The position numbers were made by a program, and so were the translations under genes. The notes beneath the pieces were generated by a model. That model ran no database searches. It was not told where the DNA came from and saw only the letters and a list, made by a program, of their open reading frames with translations. DNA of 64,000 nucleotides from a virus. The DNA is taken from positions 32,001 through 96,000 of the IMG/VR virus record IMGVR_UViG_3300032116_000033; one strand, 5' to 3'. Below, one piece after another: positions 2,844 through 10,826 of the stretch (position 1 is its first letter; each line of letters begins with the position of its first letter).

Positions 2844-3405
2844 ACAGATCGCAGAGATCGAGCGTTACCTTCGTCAGCCGACTGCGTCAGGCGCGATAGA
2901 CAAACAAGAAGCATCACCGATATACGAGCTGTTCCTGATCGGCTACAGCACCGAGGAACTTGCCGCTCGATTTCCGCAGTACTCCAAGTCGCGCATACTG
3001 TACACGGCTGCCGCCGGCGGATGGGTGAAGGACAAGGAAAGGCTGGCGAGCTCGATATACGACCGCATCAGGGCCAGGATAATCAGGTCCACCGTAGAGC
3101 AGGTCGAGTTCCTGACCGACATGATAACCGTTTCGTCGGTCGAGAACGCGGACGAGATAAGGAAGTTCCTTGACGATCCCAAGAACAACCCGCTGCCGAA
3201 CATGCGCATAAAGAACTTCAAAGAGTACCAGCAGGTCATCGACACCTTGGCCAAGGTCACCGACTCGGTCCGCTCGCTCACCAACCCGAACGCGCAGCAG
3301 GAGGCGAGGGTGGTAAAGACTAAGTCGACGAAGAAGCTTCTGCCAAAGTCAGAAGAGGCCATGCTCCTTGAGCAGCTCGTGCAGGTAGACGACGATGGAC
3401 AGTAA
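2794..3405 (+). CDS. putative terminase small subunit
   Basis: Overlaps the TerL start; helical, with an HTH-like segment (GYSTEELAARF); assigned by synteny only. Confidence 0.45.
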   Translation: MSKKKLSSEQKHGLTGEQIAEIERYLRQPTASGAIDKQEASPIYELFLIGYSTEELAARFPQYSKSRILYTAAAGGWVKDKERLASSIYDRIRARIIRSTVEQVEFLTDMITVSSVENADEIRKFLDDPKNNPLPNMRIKNFKEYQQVIDTLAKVTDSVRSLTNPNAQQEARVVKTKSTKKLLPKSEEAMLLEQLVQVDDDGQ

Positions 3406-5650
3406 GAACAGGACATGCACCGTAGAAGGCTGCAGCAAACCGTTGAAGTCCAGAGGCTACTGCACCGGGCACTATAAGTCTATAATCGACCGACCAAAGA
3501 TCAAGCAGAAGAAGATCGAGGAGACCAAGGCTGCGCGCCAGGAGGTGATAAACCGCAAGATCTCAGAGAACGCGTCCAAGTTTACGCCAGAGCAGCTGGA
3601 GCGTATACTGCTAACGCCGTGCCGCACGGAGAAAGACCTCAAGAACTTTATCCGGTACTTCTTCAACCTACACCTGCCAGACTGCAAGGTCTCCAGGTAT
3701 GCAGACACCACTCCTTTTCATGCAGTTTGGGACGTGTACGACATATGCACGAACAACAACAATCCGCAAAATATCCAAGAATTACTGTATGTTGCAGGAA
3801 GGGGCAGCGGTAAGTGCGTTTCGCAAGATACTGTAATCATTACCAATAGTGGTACCAAATATGTACAAAACGTTAAGGTTGGCGATTTAGTTTGGACCGG
3901 CTGGTCCTGGAAACCCGTGGTCGAAACTTTTGACGAAGGCATTAAAGATGGCGTAACCATTACTACCAAACATCTTACCAAAGATGGCGCATGGTCTTTG
4001 ACTGGTTCCTTAAAGCATCGTGTTCAAGCCCTTGACCCCGAGACCGGCAAGATCGACTGGGTCTACATGAAAAATCTTATTCCGGGCCAGTTGATCTATA
4101 GGTCCTTAGAGTCACTAGGTGCCTTAGTAGACACGTCTTCTAACGATTACGAACTAGGATGGCTTGTTGGCTGCATAACCGGAGATGGTTCTGTTAGTCG
4201 CTTTGATAATGCCATATCTTTTGCCGCAAAAGATAAAGATCAATTAGCAATATATATAGATACTATAGTCAAACATTTTGGCGTAGAACCAAAAGTGAAA
4301 TATGACAAAAGATCGCCAAATCTCAGTATAGCTGGTATCTGTAGCAAGGCTTTAAGAGAATACTGCGACTCCATTATCGAGGGCGAACTCTGCTATTTCA
4401 AAAAGCTGAAGACATTGAACCATAGTCCAAGTTTTCTGGCTGGTTTTATATCTGGAATGATGGAGACCGATGGCTCCAAAGACTCGATAACGTTAGCCAA
4501 TCCAGAGCTCATAAAACAAATAGCTCAGATTTTGAATTTATTCGGTGTTCATGCCGTCATCAACAAAAAACGACGCAAGCCTTCTACAACTAAGTTTGTT
4601 AAAGACCACGTAGTGGAGTATCACTGCGTCGATTATAAAACCGCTCTACCAGAATATTTGATGCCATTGTTCTCTAAGCGCGAGGCCTTCAAGATCTACA
4701 GCGCTAAGATGAACGAGCAGTTTCGCTATCCGTCTAAATTGTTGAAACCCTTTGCATCTTTTATAAAAGACAAGTATGAGATCGCGAATGGATACTGGCG
4801 TCTCGAGGCGGGAAAAAAGACCCACTCCGATATAAAGTATTCTAAAGATCTTTGGGGATCTGGCGAGAAGGCTAAGGAGCTTTATGTCTACGGTTACAAG
4901 ATCGATTATTTCATAGATCTAGCGAAACGCCTAGAGGAATATGATTGGGCCGACTACCTTTCCTTCGTCAGGAGGGGGTGTTACGAGACCGTAGATTCAG
5001 TTGCCTTTGGCAAACATTACTTCTACGATCTTGAAGTAGACGTCGATCACGCGTACTGGTCGAACGGCTTCATCAGCCACAACACCCTCGGCATGGCCAT
5101 AGCTGAGCTTCTAGTGCTGATGCACGATCAGCGCGATGTGGTGCACGTGGGCGCGATCCTTTCTCAGGCAAAACGATGCTACGAGTATCAGCAGAAATTC
5201 CTTCTTTCAGACCGAATAAAGCCGATAGTGAACCCACCGAAGGTCAGCGAAGAGAACAAGATCCTAGAGAAGATGACGATGGAGAAGTCAGTGTTCAACA
5301 TCAAGAGTGAGAAAGTCACACTTGAAGTGCTCCCGTGCACGCTGCGAGCGTGCCTGGTTTCCTCCGCTACGTCAACCGATGTGCATGGTACAATAAGATC
5401 ATTGGCAGATTTCAAGCCAGGCGATTTTATCAAAGACACCACCGGCTTCGTCGAGGTCCTCGGCAACGAGCTAGAAGACGCCGAGTGCATAAGGATAGAG
5501 CTAGAAGATGGAAGAGTCATCGAAGGAACCCTCGACCACAAAGTCTGGACCCAGCGCGGATGGATCGAGCTTCAGCACCTCACCGACGCCGACGAGATCT
5601 CATCCTTGGAAAGCACCTCAACGCGAGCGCATGCAGAAGTTAAAGCGTAA
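3395..5650 (+). CDS. terL: terminase large subunit, N-terminal fragment (cis-intein plus N-half of a split intein)
   Basis: Walker A AGRGSGK|T is interrupted by an intein; the ORF ends in an N-intein; lies upstream of the portal gene. Confidence 0.9.
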   Translation: MDSKNRTCTVEGCSKPLKSRGYCTGHYKSIIDRPKIKQKKIEETKAARQEVINRKISENASKFTPEQLERILLTPCRTEKDLKNFIRYFFNLHLPDCKVSRYADTTPFHAVWDVYDICTNNNNPQNIQELLYVAGRGSGKCVSQDTVIITNSGTKYVQNVKVGDLVWTGWSWKPVVETFDEGIKDGVTITTKHLTKDGAWSLTGSLKHRVQALDPETGKIDWVYMKNLIPGQLIYRSLESLGALVDTSSNDYELGWLVGCITGDGSVSRFDNAISFAAKDKDQLAIYIDTIVKHFGVEPKVKYDKRSPNLSIAGICSKALREYCDSIIEGELCYFKKLKTLNHSPSFLAGFISGMMETDGSKDSITLANPELIKQIAQILNLFGVHAVINKKRRKPSTTKFVKDHVVEYHCVDYKTALPEYLMPLFSKREAFKIYSAKMNEQFRYPSKLLKPFASFIKDKYEIANGYWRLEAGKKTHSDIKYSKDLWGSGEKAKELYVYGYKIDYFIDLAKRLEEYDWADYLSFVRRGCYETVDSVAFGKHYFYDLEVDVDHAYWSNGFISHNTLGMAIAELLVLMHDQRDVVHVGAILSQAKRCYEYQQKFLLSDRIKPIVNPPKVSEENKILEKMTMEKSVFNIKSEKVTLEVLPCTLRACLVSSATSTDVHGTIRSLADFKPGDFIKDTTGFVEVLGNELEDAECIRIELEDGRVIEGTLDHKVWTQRGWIELQHLTDADEISSLESTSTRAHAEVKA
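3815..5083 (+). mobile_element. cis-splicing intein with LAGLIDADG endonuclease (423 aa) in the TerL Walker A motif
   Basis: Starts CVSQDT, ends FYDLEVDVDHAYWSNGFISHN|T; LAGLIDADG motifs LVGCITGDG and FISGMMETDG. Confidence 0.92.
5351..5647 (+). mobile_element. N-terminal half of a naturally split intein (99 aa)
   Basis: Block A CLVSSAT and block B IEGTLDHKVWTQRGW, acidic tail, then a stop codon with no C-terminal HN. Confidence 0.88.
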
Positions 5651-6428
5651 AGCCGACTACTGTGAATCCTGCCAGAAGCCTCTCTACAAGAATGTCTACA
5701 CGACGTGCAAGGAATGCCGCCTAGATAAAGGCTGCACCAAGTGTGGTTCCTCTATCTTTCGCAGGGGCATGTGTAGGTCCCATTACGATAAAGATAGATT
5801 TGCAACTCGACCTAGATGCTCCGAATATGACTGCAAAGAAAATGCAAAGCACAACGGGCTTTGTTCTGTGCACTACAACGCCAACAAACTAAAACAGGCC
5901 CCAGAGTGCTCAATTTCTGGGTGCACAAAGAAGGTTGAGAAAAAAGGCTTATGTGGCACGCATTATCAAGCGTGGCGAATTAGGCAACCTAAAAAGAAAT
6001 GCTCCCATGCTTCATGCGACAACAATGCCTTCAAGCATAAACTTTGTTTTTCACACTGGAAGATATTCGATCCAGAAACGGCTTTCGTGCGCGGCATAAG
6101 GGTGAGGATAACCAACTCGATCAACAGGCGCTACAAGAAGAACGACAAGGCCGAGAAGCTGTTGGGGCTCAACATAGAGGGAGTTAGAAGACACCTGGAG
6201 TCCTTGTTCCAGCCGGGGATGTCGTGGGACAACTTTGGTAGCTGGCACATCGACCACATATGTCCTTGTTCTCAGGCTCAGAACGAAGAAGAGCTCATAA
6301 AGCTGCAGCACTACACCAACCTTAGCCCGATGTGGAAAGACGAGAACTTCGCAAAGCGTGACACTGCTACGGAGCAAGCAATAGCATCGTGCAGTAGGCT
6401 TCTGGGAAGGGGGTGGATTGGTCCATGA
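5631..6428 (+). CDS. free-standing HNH endonuclease with N-terminal Cys/His zinc-finger repeats
   Basis: Repeated CxxxxC...GxCxxHY units; PGMSWDNFGSWHIDHICP...HYTNLSPMW; ATG at 5631 overlaps the TerL-N end. Confidence 0.85.
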   Translation: MQKLKRKADYCESCQKPLYKNVYTTCKECRLDKGCTKCGSSIFRRGMCRSHYDKDRFATRPRCSEYDCKENAKHNGLCSVHYNANKLKQAPECSISGCTKKVEKKGLCGTHYQAWRIRQPKKKCSHASCDNNAFKHKLCFSHWKIFDPETAFVRGIRVRITNSINRRYKKNDKAEKLLGLNIEGVRRHLESLFQPGMSWDNFGSWHIDHICPCSQAQNEEELIKLQHYTNLSPMWKDENFAKRDTATEQAIASCSRLLGRGWIGP

Positions 6429-6481
6429 GCTGCTTTGTAAAAAAAATGCACCGTAATCAAGGCTAATTGATAAATATCGGG

Positions 6482-6511
6482 TATAATCCCTATGGCACTA
6501 AGGGGATTATA
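6482..6511 (+). promoter_or_regulatory. TATAAT box within an RBS-occluding hairpin
   Basis: TATAATCCC (6482-6490) pairs perfectly with GGGATTATA (6503-6511), covering SD AAGGGGA just before TTG 6512. Confidence 0.65.
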
Positions 6512-8170
6512 TTGTCTAACGTCAGGACATCACCAGACAAGATACGGCAGCTTCTGCTGGAGAAGCACGGCGGCCTAGTGTCTATAGACGTCTCAACCTT
6601 CTGCGGCATGAACAAGAAAGCCAAGTTCATCGACGTAGACCACGGAGAGTGGTGGGCGACGCCTACGAAGGTGGTCACATGCGGCCAAAAGCACCCCAAT
6701 AGAAGAAAGATATCGCTTGCGGACATAATCGCCGCACTCGATACAAACCATCAAGGTCTAGTTTTTATAGACTCAAGCTCGTACTCTTCCTCCAACAAGA
6801 AAGCCAAGTTCATCGACGTAGACCACGGAGAGTGGTGGGCTCCGGTGTACAAGGTTGCTTTCTACGGTCAGTCTCATCCTGGAAGAAAGTCTAAGAAGCT
6901 GTCGGACAGCCGTGCGTCGACCCACACCACAGACGACTTCAGGGCAAAGATGAGTCAGAGGATAAAGGAAAAATACCACGACATAGCGAGCACGAACCTC
7001 CAGCGGTACGGCGTGTCCACTCCGCTGCTCCTGCCAGAGACGATAGACAAGAACAGGTCCCGCTTCCTTAGCCCTGAGGCCTTGAAGAAGAAAGAAGAGA
7101 CCAGAGCCGAAAGAAGATTAAGACTAAACGAGAGAAAGAGATCTAAAAGGACAAAGGCGGATCCAGCGGATAGGCTACGAAAACTTCAAGAGATCGGCGT
7201 AGCTAAGAGCTTAGACGGAAGATCCATCAAAGATATATGGAAGCTCAACTTCGCAGACAAGATAAGCTACTCGTTCGTGTGCAAGATCTATGCCAAGCAC
7301 CTACCAGCTACGGAGAGCGATTTTATCAGCCTAGTCGAAGAGCACTTTACCATGAGCGACATAGAAACGCTAATGAGCTCAAATCCTATGTTATCAAGGT
7401 TCGATAAGTTCCCGGCAAAAGGATGCAACATAAGACCTGACTTCAAGGTCTCCGATCGCGTCTACGTCAACGTCGACGGTCTATACTGGCACTCGGACAA
7501 AACATTACACAAGAAATACCACCTGAAGGCAAGGCTAAAAGCAGAAGAGTTTAACTTAAGGCTCCTGCAGTTCAGGGCAGACGAGGTGATCTACAAGCGG
7601 TCGATCGTCGACTCTATGATAGCGGTAAAGGCTGGCGCGGTGAAAGATAAACTCCATGCCAGGAAGCTTGATATAAGACAAGTGACCGCACCGGAGGCGA
7701 AGACCTTCCTCAAGGCCAACCATCTCATGGGGTTCGCGTCCGCTTCCGTGTATCTGGCCCTCAAGGACGTAGATCAGATAAAAGTCCTGCTCTCCTTAAG
7801 GTTCGAGGGCAGTCAAGTAAAAATAGTAAGGTTCGCTTCTGCGCTGAGCACCGTGGTCGTTGGCGGTTACTCCAAGCTGCTCAAGTATGCTATAAAGACG
7901 TTCGATATAGATAAGATCTACACGTTCGTCGACCTGCGGTACGGCGACGTCGCCTCGCTCAAGGACATGGGCTTCGTGCACGTCGGCACCACGCTGGGAT
8001 GGAAGTGGACCGACTACGACAAGACCTACAATCGTCTGTTCTGCAAGGCTAACATGGACGAGAGAAAATTGACACAGAAAGAGTACGCCAAAGAGCTTGG
8101 CTTGGTCAAGATCTACGACGCGGGTCAGGCGAAGATGGTCTTAAGCGTTGACAGAGGTTCAGATGGCTAA
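6512..8170 (+). CDS. Hef-like / Vsr-like PD-(D/E)XK homing endonuclease
   Basis: RPDF...VNVDGLYWHS; ARKLDIRQV..FLKANHLMG; C-terminal IYDAGQ; paralogue of 21015-22556; start placed at the TTG after the SD. Confidence 0.75.
   Translation: MSNVRTSPDKIRQLLLEKHGGLVSIDVSTFCGMNKKAKFIDVDHGEWWATPTKVVTCGQKHPNRRKISLADIIAALDTNHQGLVFIDSSSYSSSNKKAKFIDVDHGEWWAPVYKVAFYGQSHPGRKSKKLSDSRASTHTTDDFRAKMSQRIKEKYHDIASTNLQRYGVSTPLLLPETIDKNRSRFLSPEALKKKEETRAERRLRLNERKRSKRTKADPADRLRKLQEIGVAKSLDGRSIKDIWKLNFADKISYSFVCKIYAKHLPATESDFISLVEEHFTMSDIETLMSSNPMLSRFDKFPAKGCNIRPDFKVSDRVYVNVDGLYWHSDKTLHKKYHLKARLKAEEFNLRLLQFRADEVIYKRSIVDSMIAVKAGAVKDKLHARKLDIRQVTAPEAKTFLKANHLMGFASASVYLALKDVDQIKVLLSLRFEGSQVKIVRFASALSTVVVGGYSKLLKYAIKTFDIDKIYTFVDLRYGDVASLKDMGFVHVGTTLGWKWTDYDKTYNRLFCKANMDERKLTQKEYAKELGLVKIYDAGQAKMVLSVDRGSDG
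6611..6840 (+). repeat. perfect 47-bp direct repeat (6611-6657 and 6794-6840)
   Basis: aacaagaaagccaagttcatcgacgtagaccacggagagtggtgggc occurs twice, encoding NKKAKFIDVDHGEWWA. Confidence 0.95.
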
Positions 8171-8294
8171 GGTAACGAAAATCGAGCGCACGGGCATAAA
8201 GCAAATAGCGAAATTGGAGGTTCGTTCAAGCGACGATCCGACCAATCCGATGTCAAATTCGTTTGTTACAGCTGACGGCACCATCAACCACAAC
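8163..8294 (+). mobile_element. C-terminal half of the split intein (44 aa)
   Basis: MAKVTKIERTGIKQIAKLEV...SFVTADGTINHN|C; basic N-terminus, terminal His-Asn, +1 Cys. Confidence 0.88.
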
Positions 8295-10826
8295 TGCAAT
8301 GGACCACACGTGCCGCTGGTCGTGGTGGACGAGATTGATACAGTATCAGGCGAGGGGCTTAGAGCCTACAAAGAAATCTCCGGTATGCTCGACTCCAAGC
8401 GCGGCCGTAAGCCGCTGCGCGTGGGCATATCGACCAGAAAGTCGCGATACGGTCTCATGAACCAAGCCATCGAGAACGCCGAGAAGCAGGGCAGACATGT
8501 TCGTCGCTGGACCGCATTTGAGTTCACCGAGCGATGCCCAGACTCACGATCTGGAACGCAGCGCCAAGAATACTACATCGATCAGCAGTCGTTCGACGTG
8601 AGATCTCCGTCAGAGTTCGAGAAGCTCGGCGAGCAGAGGAAGAAAGAGTACGAGAGATACGAGATGTACATAGGCTGCGGGAAATGCCCACTCGCTCCTA
8701 TATGCCTCGGCGACGCCAAGAATCAAGTCTCAGAATCGCCGATGCTCAAGTCTATAGACGAGCTCGCGCAGAAGGTCTTGTCAGAGGGTCCTGACTGGGC
8801 GATGTCCCAGCTGATGAATCTAAAGCCGTCGGTCGAGGGGATCATCTACAAAGAGTTCGACGAGCGCATGCACGTCAAGACCTGGAACCAGATGTGGTTG
8901 TCGCTGACCGGAAAAGAGTTTCCTGGCGAGTGCAACCACGATATATTCGTCAAGAAATGCTTCAGTGACGACACTGAGGTTTTGACGAACAACGGCTTTA
9001 AGCTTTTTAAAGATCTTACTGAGTATGACACTCTAGCCACCCTAGACAACGGTGGTGTGTTAAACTACCAGAAACCGATAGAGCACATCTCGTATCACTA
9101 TAAGGGAAAGATGGTAAACCTTTACAATGAGATAGGCGGAGGCAAGCACCATCTCGACCTTCTGGTTACTCCCAACCACGATGTCGAGTACCTTCACGGT
9201 AGAAACTTCAGAAAGAAGCAAGAGATAAAGCTTTTGAAGCAGCGAGCAGACTCTCTTGACGAGCTGAACGATTTTTACATACCGGCTACCTGGCTTTCCG
9301 GCTCTACAGCAAACAACATGGACATAAAATCTCCTATAAGCTTCATGACCGGCGATCAGTTTATGGCCTTCATGGGGCTTTGGCTGAGCGAAGGCTCTAT
9401 GAGTTCGACAAGAGCAAACGACGAGTGGGGGCACAACAAGGTAGAGGTTTCTCAGTCTAAGAGCAGAGACGCCTCTGACAAGGTTGAGCGGCTTATGGCA
9501 TCGATAGCTTGGCCCAACAAGCTTCACAGAGAGTCTGATGCTCGGGATCAGGTTGACTATACGACAAACTGGTCCGTATACAACAAAGAACTATATAATT
9601 ACTTAAAGCCTTTAAAGTTTGCCGTCAACAAGTTGATATCTAGGAACATACTTGAACAAGCTTCCCGCAGGCAGCTATCGATCCTTTTGGAGTGGCTATG
9701 CTTCGGGGACGGCTCGTACATGTTCGACGGATCAAGGCAACAGCCTTATTATTCAACAGGCTCTGAGCAGCTTGCCAACGATGTTCAAGAGCTATGCTTT
9801 AGATTGGGATATAAGAGTTCTCTTTCAATGCAGGGTAATCAAGGCAAAACGCACAAGAACACAGGGACTGAGTACCTAAGACGTTTTAGAGTTAATTTTC
9901 ACTTTAAGACAAACAACAAGCCAGCAGATCGTTCGTACTACATCAACAACGGAACCAACAAGAGCGAATATTCTAATAAAACACAAGGAAACATAGGTGA
10001 AGTAGACTACGATGGAATGGTCTATTGTGTAACGATGCCCTCGTCTAGGTTATTTGTTCGCCGCAACGGAGTAATATCGCTGAGCGGCAACTGTCACAAC
10101 ATGGGTCTTCCAGCGTACGCCGGCATCGACTGGGGATGGTCAAACCCGCACACGCTCGTGGTATTTTTCGTGGACGCAAAAGAGAACATATACGTCGTAA
10201 GATGCGACGGCATGACGTATATATCAAGGCCCACGTGGATGCACCACATCAAGAACAAGTGGCATCAGCCATACCGTATCCAACTCTACTTTCCTGACCA
10301 AGCGGATCCTGGTGACGCAGTAGAGATGAGGAAGCTTGGCCTTCCGACTTCGACAAACACAGACAAGGGCAACATCAACACCGGCATACAGATCATAAAG
10401 AAGTGGCTTAAGATTCCAGGCACTGCCGAGTCTAAGCTTTTCATTGCTCAGGAGACATGTCAGGCTCTGATAAGGGAGTTCCAGCTCTACCACTACAAAA
10501 CCGATGCCGCTGGCCAGATATCAGACACTCCAGACAGCGAGCACGATCACTGGCTGGATGCTTTACGATACCCGCTGACGAACCTTTTCGGCAAGAACCA
10601 GATCGTGCTTTCATCTGCCGGTTTGGACGTCGATATGGCAAAACTGGTTGATAACAATGGAAATTTCTTCAAGGCGCCCACTCCAGAAGAGTACGCGAAA
10701 CTCAACAACCTGCCGTTTAATCCAGAGGTTAATGCCGATAAGCTTGGTAAAATAGGAAGGCTGTCTGAGATCGATGACGAGGAAGACGATAAGTCTGTAG
10801 ACGGTGGATTTCTTTGGACGTTTTGA
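8163..10826 (+). CDS. terL: terminase large subunit, C-terminal fragment (C-half of the split intein, Walker B, cis-intein, nuclease domain)
   Basis: Walker B VVVDEID, coupling motif ISTR, RNase H-like nuclease GIDWGWSNP and DHWLDALRY; SD GAGGT before ATG 8163. Confidence 0.9.
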   Translation: MAKVTKIERTGIKQIAKLEVRSSDDPTNPMSNSFVTADGTINHNCNGPHVPLVVVDEIDTVSGEGLRAYKEISGMLDSKRGRKPLRVGISTRKSRYGLMNQAIENAEKQGRHVRRWTAFEFTERCPDSRSGTQRQEYYIDQQSFDVRSPSEFEKLGEQRKKEYERYEMYIGCGKCPLAPICLGDAKNQVSESPMLKSIDELAQKVLSEGPDWAMSQLMNLKPSVEGIIYKEFDERMHVKTWNQMWLSLTGKEFPGECNHDIFVKKCFSDDTEVLTNNGFKLFKDLTEYDTLATLDNGGVLNYQKPIEHISYHYKGKMVNLYNEIGGGKHHLDLLVTPNHDVEYLHGRNFRKKQEIKLLKQRADSLDELNDFYIPATWLSGSTANNMDIKSPISFMTGDQFMAFMGLWLSEGSMSSTRANDEWGHNKVEVSQSKSRDASDKVERLMASIAWPNKLHRESDARDQVDYTTNWSVYNKELYNYLKPLKFAVNKLISRNILEQASRRQLSILLEWLCFGDGSYMFDGSRQQPYYSTGSEQLANDVQELCFRLGYKSSLSMQGNQGKTHKNTGTEYLRRFRVNFHFKTNNKPADRSYYINNGTNKSEYSNKTQGNIGEVDYDGMVYCVTMPSSRLFVRRNGVISLSGNCHNMGLPAYAGIDWGWSNPHTLVVFFVDAKENIYVVRCDGMTYISRPTWMHHIKNKWHQPYRIQLYFPDQADPGDAVEMRKLGLPTSTNTDKGNINTGIQIIKKWLKIPGTAESKLFIAQETCQALIREFQLYHYKTDAAGQISDTPDSEHDHWLDALRYPLTNLFGKNQIVLSSAGLDVDMAKLVDNNGNFFKAPTPEEYAKLNNLPFNPEVNADKLGKIGRLSEIDDEEDDKSVDGGFLWTF
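8958..10091 (+). mobile_element. cis-splicing intein with LAGLIDADG endonuclease (378 aa)
   Basis: CFSDDTEVLT, block B VTPNH, FMGLWLSEG and LEWLCFGDG, ends VYCVTMP...RRNGVISLSGN|C. Confidence 0.92.

What the first reader, a model, noticed from the sequence alone, without database searches (positions are those of the whole stretch)
3395..10826. Fractured large terminase that needs three protein-splicing events, one in trans through a natural split intein
Seen: TerL is two ORFs 2.5 kb apart. ORF1 ends with a 99-aa N-intein (CLVSSAT..GTLDH, acidic tail, stop). ORF2 begins with a 44-aa basic C-intein ending HN|C. Joining the exteins gives LEVLPCTLRA-CNGPHVPLVVVDEID, restoring the ATPase strand that leads into Walker B. 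Each half also has its own LAGLIDADG cis-intein (3815-5083 in Walker A; 8958-10091 before the nuclease domain). Known: fractured phage genes with split inteins and intervening endonucleases have been described, and the TerL split inteins I know of are atypically split with a short N-half. Inference: this is a conventionally split pair at a site next to Walker B, combined with two cis-inteins, so DNA packaging would depend on trans-splicing. It may be a new orthogonal split intein.
Basis: partly seen in the sequence, partly recalled or inferred. Interest (0 to 1): 0.9.

Follow-up and report, generated by a model that had tools for sequence, protein, structure and literature searches.

The report
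Phage terminase gene rejoined by inteins
An uncultured freshwater phage encodes its DNA-packaging enzyme as two separate genes that most likely have to be joined after translation by a two-piece self-splicing protein element, with two further one-piece elements also to be removed; this kind of layout is already known, and this is a well-supported new example.

Summary
ORF1 (3395-5650) is TerL extein, a 423-aa LAGLIDADG intein after the Walker A lysine (GK|T), more extein, then a 99-aa N-intein. ORF2 (ATG 8163-10826) is a 44-aa C-intein, extein with Walker B, a 378-aa LAGLIDADG intein, then the nuclease domain. An HNH gene and a Vsr/DUF559-like endonuclease gene lie between the halves.

I compared 90 related viral contigs. 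Empty alleles read straight through all three sites with no gap. Site b is occupied in 19 of 76 contigs that cover it, and 17 of these carry homologous split halves with varied genes in the gap. The +1 residue is Cys in 20 of 20 occupied alleles and in 5 of 54 empty ones. C1, TLDH and the terminal HN never vary. dN/dS is about 0.1. The halves dock in a predicted complex (0.68, best control 0.01). The nearest solved relatives are the gp41-1 and NrdJ-1 split inteins.

No RNA intron signal was found. Splicing itself is inferred, not shown.

This is a "fractured gene" in the sense of Dassa et al. 2009. The published TerL split inteins I found are atypically split; this one is conventionally split. 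This scan has noted split-intein terminases before, on other DNA. None of the 70 relatives covering all three sites has all three occupied.

The parts
3395..3814 (+). TerL extein part 1 (140 aa). It has an N-terminal Cys/His zinc-ribbon-like motif and runs to the Walker A lysine (VAGRGSGK).
   Evidence: It aligns with intact TerL genes of relatives. Residues 4-53 hit phrog_5351.
3815..5083 (+). Cis-intein 1: 423 aa, LAGLIDADG type, C1...SHN|T, inserted between Lys and Thr of Walker A.
   Evidence: Pfam LAGLIDADG_3 at 1.4e-9. NCBIfam intein_Cterm at 20.8 bits, above its 15.6 cut-off. 12 of 72 related contigs carry an intein at this site and 60 empty alleles read GK|T.
5084..5350 (+). TerL extein part 2 (89 aa), ending LEVLPCTLRA.
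5351..5650 (+). N-half of the split intein (99 aa plus stop): C1, block B TLDH, net charge -11.
   Evidence: Alignment A1. PDB profile hits gp41-1 at 9.7e-4 and NrdJ-1 at 5.6e-3. NCBIfam intein_Nterm at 23.6 bits, just under its 24.5 cut-off. dN/dS 0.08-0.17.
5631..6428 (+). Free-standing HNH-type endonuclease gene with repeated Cys/His zinc-ribbon motifs. The start is uncertain: ATG 5631, or 5508 overlapping the N-intein.
   Evidence: phrog_5351 'HNH endonuclease' at 2.1e-7. A WHIDH...N...N motif is visible in the translation. Homologues sit in the same gap in L015, L024 and L103.
6467..8170 (+). Free-standing homing-endonuclease-like gene (567 aa). It has two N-terminal repeats, a Vsr/DUF559-like nuclease core at about residues 300-388 (nt 7364-7630), and a C-terminal domain with a GNAT-like fold.
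   Evidence: phrog_3339 'homing endonuclease' at 1e-38. Homologues P0030 and P0031 hit Pfam DUF559 (1.8e-8, 1.2e-6) in a region that maps to residues 289-388. Model pLDDT is 83.6, and the best Foldseek hits are GNAT acetyltransferases and phage Mu Mom.
8163..8294 (+). C-half of the split intein (44 aa): block F LEV, block G ...INHN, followed by Cys +1.
   Evidence: Alignment A2. Predicted complex with the N-half. dN/dS median 0.09.
8295..8957 (+). TerL extein part 3 (221 aa): Cys+1, NGPH, Walker B LVVVDE, and the rest of the ATPase domain.
   Evidence: Fold of the intact relative.
8958..10091 (+). Cis-intein 2: 378 aa, LAGLIDADG type, C1...SGN|C, with glycine at the penultimate position. It sits just before the first strand of the nuclease domain.
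   Evidence: Pfam LAGLIDADG_3 at 4.3e-6. 3 of 83 related contigs carry it, all ending SGN|C, and 77 empty alleles read KK|C.
10092..10826 (+). TerL extein part 4 (244 aa plus stop): RNase H-like nuclease domain.
   Evidence: phrog_5653 'terminase large subunit' at 1.2e-20. PDB hit to D6E TerL. tblastn hits annotated terminase genes.

Best explanation
The phage's only detected large-terminase gene is a 'fractured gene'. The two halves are translated separately from one strand. The 99-aa N-intein at the end of ORF1 and the 44-aa C-intein at the start of ORF2 associate into one HINT domain and carry out class-1 protein trans-splicing: Cys1 thioester, transfer to Cys+1, Asn44 cyclisation. This forms the peptide bond ...LEVLPCTLRA-CNGPHVPLVVVDE..., 12 residues before the Walker B aspartate. 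The two LAGLIDADG inteins, one in Walker A and one before the nuclease domain, remove themselves in cis. Three splicing events together give a TerL of about 694 aa, colinear with the intact TerL of relatives. The split arose, or is kept, because free-standing endonuclease genes occupy the position inside the intein where endonuclease domains normally sit; here these are an HNH gene and a Vsr/DUF559-like gene. Shown here: the anatomy, the colinearity, the conservation, the population polymorphism and the predicted docking. Inferred: the chemistry, and that packaging depends on it.
For: (1) Colinearity. All 54 empty contigs join E2 to E3 with no gap, and there are 22 distinct empty junction sequences.

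(2) The +1 residue is Cys in 20 of 20 occupied alleles (window included) and in 5 of 54 empty ones; the other 49 have Leu, Val or Thr. In 5 phylogenetically independent pairs, Cys went the same way in 4.7 on average and never the other way. The sign test gives median p 0.0625, which cannot reach 0.05 with 5 pairs.

(3) C1, T60-L-D-H63 and H43-N44 are invariant in 10 of 10 aligned homologues that are down to 40% and 37% identical.

(4) Purifying selection. dN/dS for the N-half is 0.08-0.17 (median 0.115; 11 of 21 pairs usable). For the C-half the median is 0.092 (6 of 21 usable). The remaining pairs are saturated at synonymous sites.

(5) The N-half profile hits the gp41-1 intein (9.7e-4), the NrdJ-1 intein (5.6e-3), Pab PolC and the DnaE inteins in the PDB. 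It hits 1446 proteins at E<=1e-3 among 1.84 billion representatives. In 64 of the best 150, the match lies at the protein's C-terminus.

(6) Predicted complex. The score is 0.68 against a best control of 0.01. That mark was reached by 58 of 80 solved complexes and 2 of 110 mismatched pairs. The runs share at least 95% of contacts and the partner's pLDDT is at least 79. Solved split-intein complexes exist, so this pass may only reflect likeness.

(7) 17 related contigs keep homologous halves at this site while the gap content differs.

(8) Only one TerL nuclease domain was found in the 134.9-kb record, which is 81% complete.

(9) The intact relative L016 folds as a two-domain large terminase (Foldseek: D6E TerL 1e-10, T4 gp17 2.6e-9).

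(10) The fragment lengths (99 and 44 aa) fall within the 88-105 and 33-54 ranges of the fractured-gene split inteins (passages of PMC2677866).
Against: There is no experimental splicing data for this intein or any relative.

The C-half alone matches no solved structure or family model.

The C-half is barely basic (+1), so the charge complementarity described for other split inteins is only partial.

Cis-intein 2 has Gly instead of the usual penultimate His, which might slow or block its C-terminal step. The Gly is, however, conserved in relatives only 50% identical.

The independent-pairs test does not reach significance.

The record is about 81% complete, so a second intact TerL elsewhere is not excluded.
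Confidence: 0.8

Rival explanations
1. The intein halves only hold the two TerL fragments together. They act as a high-affinity dimerisation module without peptide-bond formation, and the terminase works as a non-covalent complex.
For: Docking is predicted. Fractured phage enzymes that assemble without splicing are cited in the discussion of PMC2677866 (Aeh1 NrdA; passage seen).
Against: Association alone would not require C1, TLDH, HN and Cys+1 to be invariant. It would also not require Cys at +1 in 20 of 20 occupied alleles against 5 of 54 empty ones. The break lies inside the ATPase core, right before the Walker B strand.
Confidence: 0.08
2. The gene is dead. The phage genome is defective, or one of the three inteins (for example cis-intein 2 with its Gly-Asn end) no longer splices, so no functional TerL is made from this locus.
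For: Three obligatory splicing events multiply the risk of failure. Cis-intein 2 has an unusual penultimate Gly. The record is incomplete. The endonuclease has Asn where more distant relatives have Glu or Asp.
Against: All four extein parts and all three inteins are open. Where measured, the two split-intein halves and exteins E2 and E3 are under strong purifying selection (E2 median dN/dS 0.065 and E3 0.040, on 3 and 2 usable pairs). The stretch 5000-8600 is held nearly word for word (share >=0.97) by 17 runs of 13 studies dated 2017-2025, though each of these may be the source. SGN|C is conserved at 50% identity.
Confidence: 0.05
3. The 2.5-kb insert is removed at the RNA level as a group I or group II intron, and the intein-like ends are coincidental.
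For: Endonuclease-bearing introns are common in phage genes. Vsr-like endonuclease ORFs also occur in group I introns (PMC2677866).
Against: No Rfam family matched at gathering score in the whole window, and none matched at E<=1 in 5200-8400. Both ends code for conserved intein motifs under purifying selection. One contig from an RNA library runs colinear over 8007-8302 without a joint; this is weak evidence, because DNA carry-over or unspliced precursor would look the same.
Confidence: 0.02
4. Misassembly: the two halves and the endonuclease genes are not really adjacent.
For: The record is a metagenome assembly.
Against: 17 other viral contigs carry the same split at the same codon. 17 of 24 listed runs hold at least 0.97 of the sampled words of 5000-8600 in their own contigs. 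A 99%-identical copy of the endonuclease protein stands for a cluster of 17 member sequences.
Confidence: 0.01

Closest known systems
'Fractured genes' of Dassa, London, Stoddard, Schueler-Furman and Pietrokovski 2009 (PMC2677866; passages read): gp41-1, gp41-8, NrdJ-1, IMPDH-1, NrdA-2 and others
   Same: A phage gene is cut in two on one strand. Split-intein halves of about 100 and 40 aa are broken at the endonuclease position. A free-standing endonuclease gene, including the Vsr-like type, lies between them. Cys1, TxxH, HN and Cys+1 are present. The nearest solved relatives of the N-half are gp41-1 and NrdJ-1. One of their loci (DnaE-1) also carried part of an additional in-frame intein.
   Different: The host protein and site differ: TerL, 12 residues before the Walker B aspartate. 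There are two endonuclease genes in tandem (HNH plus Vsr/DUF559-like with a GNAT-like domain). No significant RNA hairpin lies before the endonuclease starts. Two complete cis-inteins sit in the same gene.
GOS-TerL (the fractured terminase of Dassa 2009) and AceL-TerL atypically split inteins (review PMC11766414, passages)
   Same: They are natural split inteins in phage large terminase genes found in metagenomes.
   Different: Their N-fragments are 37 and 25 aa and their C-fragments 115 and 104 aa. Here the fragments are 99 and 44 aa. I could not compare sequences or insertion sites: the primary papers are not in the library and supplements are closed.
Cis-inteins of mycobacteriophage TerL (Kelley et al. 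2016, PMC5050341, passages)
   Same: Cis-intein 1 sits at the 'classic' P-loop site between the invariant Lys and the Thr, like TerL1-a. Their TerL1-e intein lies in the Walker B motif, and site b here lies 12 residues before the Walker B aspartate.
   Different: All seven sites in that survey lie in the ATPase domain and none is split ('split' occurs 0 times in the text). Cis-intein 2 here lies at the start of the nuclease domain.
Trichodesmium erythraeum split dnaE with multiple inteins (Liu and Yang 2003; only the reference title was seen; details recalled)
   Same: One protein needs a trans-splicing event plus further cis-splicing events.
   Different: It is a cellular replicative polymerase whose halves are far apart in the genome, with no endonuclease genes between them (recalled, not checked).

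Membership tests
Class-1 intein (HINT domain), canonically split | Nucleophile (Cys, Ser or Thr) at intein position 1 | tested here: met
   C1 is invariant in 10 of 10 aligned N-halves.
Class-1 intein (HINT domain), canonically split | Block B TxxH | tested here: met
   T60-L-D-H63 is invariant in 10 of 10. NCBIfam intein_Nterm scores 23.6 bits, just under its 24.5 cut-off.
Class-1 intein (HINT domain), canonically split | C-terminal His-Asn followed by a Cys, Ser or Thr at +1 | tested here: met
   H43-N44 is invariant in 10 of 10. Cys+1 is present in 20 of 20 occupied alleles.
Class-1 intein (HINT domain), canonically split | Exteins are colinear with intein-free alleles once the element is removed | tested here: met
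   The gap is 0 in 54 empty contigs.
Class-1 intein (HINT domain), canonically split | The break lies at the endonuclease-insertion position (N-part about 88-105 aa, C-part about 33-54 aa) | tested here: met
   The fragments are 99 and 44 aa. The ranges come from PMC2677866.
Class-1 intein (HINT domain), canonically split | The two halves fold together into one HINT domain | tested here: met
   This is a prediction only. The score is 0.68 against a best control of 0.01 (mark reached by 58 of 80 solved complexes and 2 of 110 mismatched pairs). Contacts agree at 95% or more and partner pLDDT is at least 79. Likeness to solved split inteins may explain the pass.
Class-1 intein (HINT domain), canonically split | Protein trans-splicing activity | not testable with these tools
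   Needs co-expression and detection of the ligated product.
Fractured gene (Dassa et al. 2009) | Both gene halves are adjacent on one strand with a free-standing endonuclease ORF between the intein halves | tested here: met
   ORFs 5631-6428 and 6467-8170 lie on the + strand between the halves.
Fractured gene (Dassa et al. 2009) | The endonuclease is of the GIY-YIG or Vsr-like type | tested here: inconclusive
   The window's protein reaches no Pfam nuclease model. Homologues P0030 and P0031 hit DUF559, with a weak Vsr hit at 0.008, in the region that aligns with residues 289-388. D325, D337, H342 and E373 are conserved. The fold search was dominated by the GNAT-like domain. The other ORF in the gap is HNH, a type not reported in their loci.
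Fractured gene (Dassa et al. 2009) | RNA hairpin upstream of the endonuclease start (15 of 16 of their loci) | tested here: not met
   z-scores are -0.80, +1.52 and +0.90 for the three start regions.
Fractured gene (Dassa et al. 2009) | Complementary charge of the halves (N negative, C positive) | tested here: inconclusive
   The N-half is -11. The C-half is +1 overall and +3 in its first 20 residues.
Atypically split TerL inteins (AceL-TerL, GOS-TerL) | Short N-fragment (25-37 aa) and long C-fragment (104-115 aa) | tested here: not met
   The fragments here are 99 and 44 aa. The published values come from PMC11766414.
LAGLIDADG cis-inteins (both insertions) | An in-frame insertion bounded by C1 and a terminal Asn plus a nucleophile, carrying a LAGLIDADG domain and absent from empty alleles | tested here: met
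   Intein 1 is C...HN|T. Intein 2 is C...GN|C, lacking the penultimate His, and this is conserved in 3 relatives.
Large terminase (TerL) | Walker A, Walker B with catalytic Glu, and a C-terminal RNase H-like nuclease domain | tested here: met
   GRGSGK|T and LVVVDE are visible in the translation. PHROG terminase families hit at 1.2e-20. The intact relative's model matches D6E, T4, HK97 and Sf6 TerL.

The most novel reading that the evidence does not exclude
The site-b split intein may be a long-lived module rather than a passing parasite. On this reading, its gap serves as a landing pad where unrelated genes are exchanged: HNH, Vsr-like nuclease, PolX-like nucleotidyltransferase plus an unknown ORF, and a trypsin-like peptidase. 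One lineage (L059/L062) would have gone a step further to a natural three-piece intein, with block A fused to an HNH domain, then TAA-ATG, then the rest of the N-half as its own ORF, then the C-half. If these forms all splice, the family is a natural series of canonical, cargo-bearing and three-piece split inteins at one site, and a source of new orthogonal ligation tools.
Probability: 0.25. Interest if true: 0.7.

Novelty: new member of a known kind. Interest (0 to 1): 0.45.

Why it matters
DNA packaging in this phage would depend on three protein-splicing events, one of them between two separate polypeptides. That makes terminase maturation a possible bottleneck or control point in the late phase of infection.

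For protein engineers, the family offers a conventionally split Cys1/Cys+1 intein from a host protein where the papers I found describe only atypically split ones. Ten natural allelic pairs, 37-95% identical to the window's, are ready for rate and orthogonality tests.

For the evolution of mobile elements, the 90 related contigs show empty, mini, full, split and possibly three-piece states side by side at three sites of one gene. They also show non-nuclease cargo in the gap of a split intein.

Tried and rejected
- Megablast of 3395-10826 against phage records found no match. Only distant TerL hits below 31% identity came from tblastn.
- Rfam gave nothing on the whole window at gathering score and nothing on 5200-8400 at E<=1. 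The intron reading is set aside.
- The tRNA scan found none.
- Promoter-like and terminator-like sites occur at the number expected by chance (9 against 9.0; 11 against 7.9), so nothing can be said about separate transcription.
- Hairpins before the three starts are not better than shuffles.
- PDB sequence searches found nothing related for the C-half profile (only de novo TIM barrels and a DnaB intein at E 1.2), the endonuclease, cis-intein 1 or cis-intein 2.
- NCBIfam found nothing for the C-half or for either endonuclease.
- The fold search on the endonuclease model returned GNAT folds, so it could not test whether the nuclease core is Vsr-like.
- Raw-read DNA run X22 laid 0 reads, which is no test.
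- The RNA-library contigs are too short and too few to show transcription or to exclude splicing.
- Look-ups of this scan's notes by place and by sequence returned nothing.
- The primary papers on AceL-TerL and GOS-TerL are not in the searchable library, and supplements are closed. I therefore could not compare with the terminase locus in Supplementary Figure S1 of PMC2677866, which may bear on whether site b is already on record.
- Searches for a conventionally split TerL intein in print found none. This holds only for the held library.
Full report
WHAT IS THERE

The window is bases 32001-96000 of a 134,893-base virus record, estimated 81% complete. Upstream of the finding lies a 203-aa ORF that is conserved next to TerL in relatives. 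Downstream lies a portal gene (Pfam Phage_portal 4.3e-16).

Between them, four + strand ORFs fill 3395-10826.

ORF1 (3395-5650, 751 aa) consists of:
- extein part E1, ending VAGRGSGK;
- a 423-aa insertion, CVSQD...FISHN, followed by T;
- extein part E2, ending LEVLPCTLRA;
- a 99-aa tail, CLVSSAT...GTLDH...AEVKA, then the stop.

ORF2 starts at TTG 8148 or, more likely, at ATG 8163. The ATG has AGAGG 7 nt upstream, and ten homologues all begin at this position. ORF2 consists of:
- a 44-aa head, MAKVTK...GTINHN;
- extein part E3, beginning CNGPHVPLVVVDEID;
- a 378-aa insertion, CFSDD...SLSGN, followed by C;
- extein part E4.

IT IS A LARGE TERMINASE

E4 hits PHROG terminase families (1.2e-20), annotated terminase genes in 121 phage records at under 31% identity, and the D6E TerL in the PDB.

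An uninterrupted relative, L016 (693 aa, 80-88% identical to E2-E4 and 65% to E1), was folded with 11 aligned sequences. Mean pLDDT is 64, with the ATPase core mostly above 80. Foldseek matched it over both domains to D6E TerL (1e-10), T4 gp17 (2.6e-9), HK97 and Sf6 TerL.

On that model the three insertion sites map as follows:
- Site a is the P-loop, K140|T141.
- Site b (A229|L230) lies between strand 216-224 and the Walker B strand 237-241. The Walker B Asp and the catalytic Glu are residues +12 and +13 after the splice site.
- Site c (K450|C451) lies just before the first nuclease-domain strand, which carries the invariant GIDWG.

COMPARATIVE EVIDENCE

Two scans of IMG/VR returned 107 loci from 90 distinct contigs. 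I laid ten pieces of the window's locus on them by tblastn and measured the gap at each site.

| Site | Contigs covering it | Occupied |
|---|---|---|
| a | 72 | 12 |
| b | 76 | 19 |
| c | 83 | 3 |

Empty alleles have a gap of exactly 0 at each site. None of the 70 contigs that cover all three sites has all three occupied. L022, L024 and L103 have a+b, and L029 has a+c. The window's triple state is therefore the only one seen.

At site b, 17 contigs have homologous N- and C-halves in separate ORFs. One (L072) has a contiguous 398-aa LAGLIDADG intein. One (L059) has a three-ORF form.

On a tree of E3 with the +1 residue left out (74 rows), occupancy changes at least 9 times, of which at least 5 are forced by well-supported branches. 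This is the patchy pattern expected of a mobile element.

EVIDENCE THAT THE HALVES ARE A WORKING INTEIN

- The +1 residue is Cys in 20 of 20 occupied alleles. In the 54 empty ones it is Leu 18, Val 30, Thr 1 and Cys 5. The five empty alleles with Cys form one clade with the occupied L102.
- Five independent contrasts go the same way (4.7 on average, none opposite). Five pairs cannot reach p 0.05; the median p is 0.0625.
- C1, TLDH and the terminal HN are invariant across ten alleles down to 37-40% identity.
- dN/dS is about 0.1 for both halves wherever synonymous sites are not saturated. That is 11 of 21 pairs for the N-half and 6 of 21 for the C-half.
- The N-half profile finds the gp41-1 intein (9.7e-4), NrdJ-1 (5.6e-3), Pab PolC and the DnaE inteins among solved structures. 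It finds 1446 proteins at E<=1e-3 among 1.84 billion representatives, 35 at <=1e-10 and none at <=1e-30. Three of the 45 best that I listed (P0044, P0047, P0049) carry TerL extein sequence; they score 92, 77 and 75 bits, and some extein-less fragments score as high. Of ten other C-terminal hits scanned with Pfam, five are DNA polymerase III alpha fragments (PHP, DNA_pol3_alpha or finger domains). The best-scoring of the ten is P0054 at 67.5 bits, which shows only a weak intein hit. So this is a distinct allele family within the intein superfamily.
- The predicted complex of the two halves scored 0.68 against a best control of 0.01. That mark was reached by 58 of 80 solved complexes and 2 of 110 mismatched pairs. 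At least 95% of contacts are shared between runs, and the partner's pLDDT is at least 79. Split-intein complexes have been solved, so this shows likeness rather than proof.

THE GAP

ORF 5631 (or 5508) to 6428 is an HNH endonuclease. It hits phrog_5351 at 2.1e-7, shows a WHIDH...N motif, and has four Cys/His ribbon repeats.

ORF 6467-8170 hits phrog_3339 'homing endonuclease' at 1e-38. Of its 41 database homologues, 17 carry DUF7487, of which two also carry DUF559. The DUF559 stretch, which also gives a weak Vsr hit, maps onto residues 289-388 of the window's protein. That region includes the conserved RPDF, VDGLYWH and E373.

The model of this protein (pLDDT 83.6) has a C-terminal domain whose best PDB neighbours are GNAT acetyltransferases and phage Mu Mom.

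In relatives the gap holds different genes:

| Gap content | Contigs |
|---|---|
| Vsr-like gene alone | 4 |
| Vsr-like gene alone, opposite strand | 1 |
| HNH gene alone | 1 |
| HNH plus reversed Vsr-like gene | 1 |
| HNH plus a partial Vsr-like gene | 1 |
| PolX-like nucleotidyltransferase plus an unknown 300-aa ORF | 8 |
| Trypsin-like peptidase (L102) | 1 |

For the PolX-like group I read the ORFs in L001 and L008 only, and ran Pfam on L001 only.

ALTERNATIVES

An RNA intron is unsupported: no Rfam match was found, even at E<=1.

Misassembly is unlikely, given 17 independent contigs with the same split. In addition, 17 of 24 listed runs from 13 studies (2017-2025) hold at least 0.97 of the sampled words of 5000-8600, though each is flagged as a possible source.

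Six short contigs from three RNA libraries match at 100%. One runs colinear over 8007-8302. This neither shows transcription nor excludes splicing.

Non-covalent assembly and a dead gene cannot be excluded without experiments. Both fit the conservation pattern poorly.

COMPARISON WITH WHAT IS KNOWN

Dassa et al. 2009 (PMC2677866; passages read) defined exactly this layout. They listed a phage terminase among the hosts, but with an unusual break and a 122-residue C-part.

The review PMC11766414 (passages) gives GOS-TerL as 37/115 aa and AceL-TerL as 25/104 aa.

Kelley et al. 2016 (PMC5050341; passages) describe seven cis-intein sites in mycobacteriophage TerL. These include the classic P-loop K|T site and a Walker B site, all in the ATPase domain, and none is split.

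I found no paper describing a conventionally split TerL intein. The primary AceL and GOS papers and all supplements were out of reach.

This scan's own notes list 141 earlier findings with these words in at least 118 genomes. Split-intein terminases are therefore common in phage metagenomes, even if they are thin in print.

VERDICT

This is a new, well-documented member of a known kind. It has three uncommon features: a conventional split in TerL, two tandem endonuclease genes in the gap, and three inteins in one gene. Trans-splicing remains inferred.

Noticed in passing
L059:5045-7076, and L062:1-1204 (99.1% identical DNA from another metagenome): At the same TerL site the N-half is itself broken. 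ORF1 ends with block A (CLTENSKV...) fused in frame to an HNH domain. TAA is followed directly by ATG, opening a 140-aa ORF that holds the rest of the N-half (GTLDH). A third ORF starts with the C-half (...LHHN|C). This is a possible natural three-piece split intein, or a decaying one.
   Followed up: partly
L102:9125-9865; L001:7706-9113 and L008:7674-9138: In relatives the gap between the split-intein halves holds non-nuclease genes. L102 has a trypsin-like peptidase (Pfam Trypsin_2 1.5e-6). L001 has a DNA polymerase beta-like nucleotidyltransferase (thumb 3.3e-12, palm 6.6e-5) plus an unknown ORF of about 300 aa.
   Followed up: partly
L072:8144-9337: A contiguous 398-aa LAGLIDADG intein sits at exactly site b. 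It ends in Gln (SLQ|C), has no TxxH at block B, and is only weakly like the split N-half (18.9 bits).
   Followed up: partly
L043:1249-2336: An insertion of about 1.1 kb lies inside extein part 3 of a relative. This may be a fourth intein site in this TerL family.
   Followed up: no
window 3404-3553 (ORF1 residues 4-53) and 5631-6200: TerL starts with a C-x2-C...C-x2-H ribbon motif that matches the repeated motif of the neighbouring HNH protein (phrog_5351, 2.6e-6). It is present in the closer relatives (L016, L032, L035, L039) and absent from more distant ones (L038, L042, L096).
   Followed up: partly
window 7640-8150 (endonuclease residues about 390-560): The homing-endonuclease-like protein ends in a domain with a GNAT acetyltransferase-like fold. 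The best PDB neighbours include phage Mu Mom (1.6e-5). Its role in a homing enzyme is unexplained.
   Followed up: partly
window 10086-10091: Cis-intein 2 ends Gly-Asn rather than His-Asn. The Gly is kept in three relatives, two of them only 50% identical, so it is a feature of this intein family and not a recent defect.
   Followed up: yes
L103:3142-3558: A 139-aa mini-intein without an endonuclease domain sits at the Walker A site, beside full-length 414-424-aa alleles in eleven other contigs.
   Followed up: partly
L038, L096, L098, L100, L106 (site b): Five empty alleles keep Cys at +1 and form one clade with the occupied L102. This is consistent with recent precise loss of the intein, or with a pre-adapted site.
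   Followed up: partly
window 7469 (endonuclease residue 335): The acidic residue before VDG (Glu or Asp in 9 of 23 aligned homologues) is Asn in the window's protein and in 13 others. Dassa et al. describe an invariant Glu in the active-site region of their Vsr-like family. Whether this is the same position was not established.
   Followed up: partly
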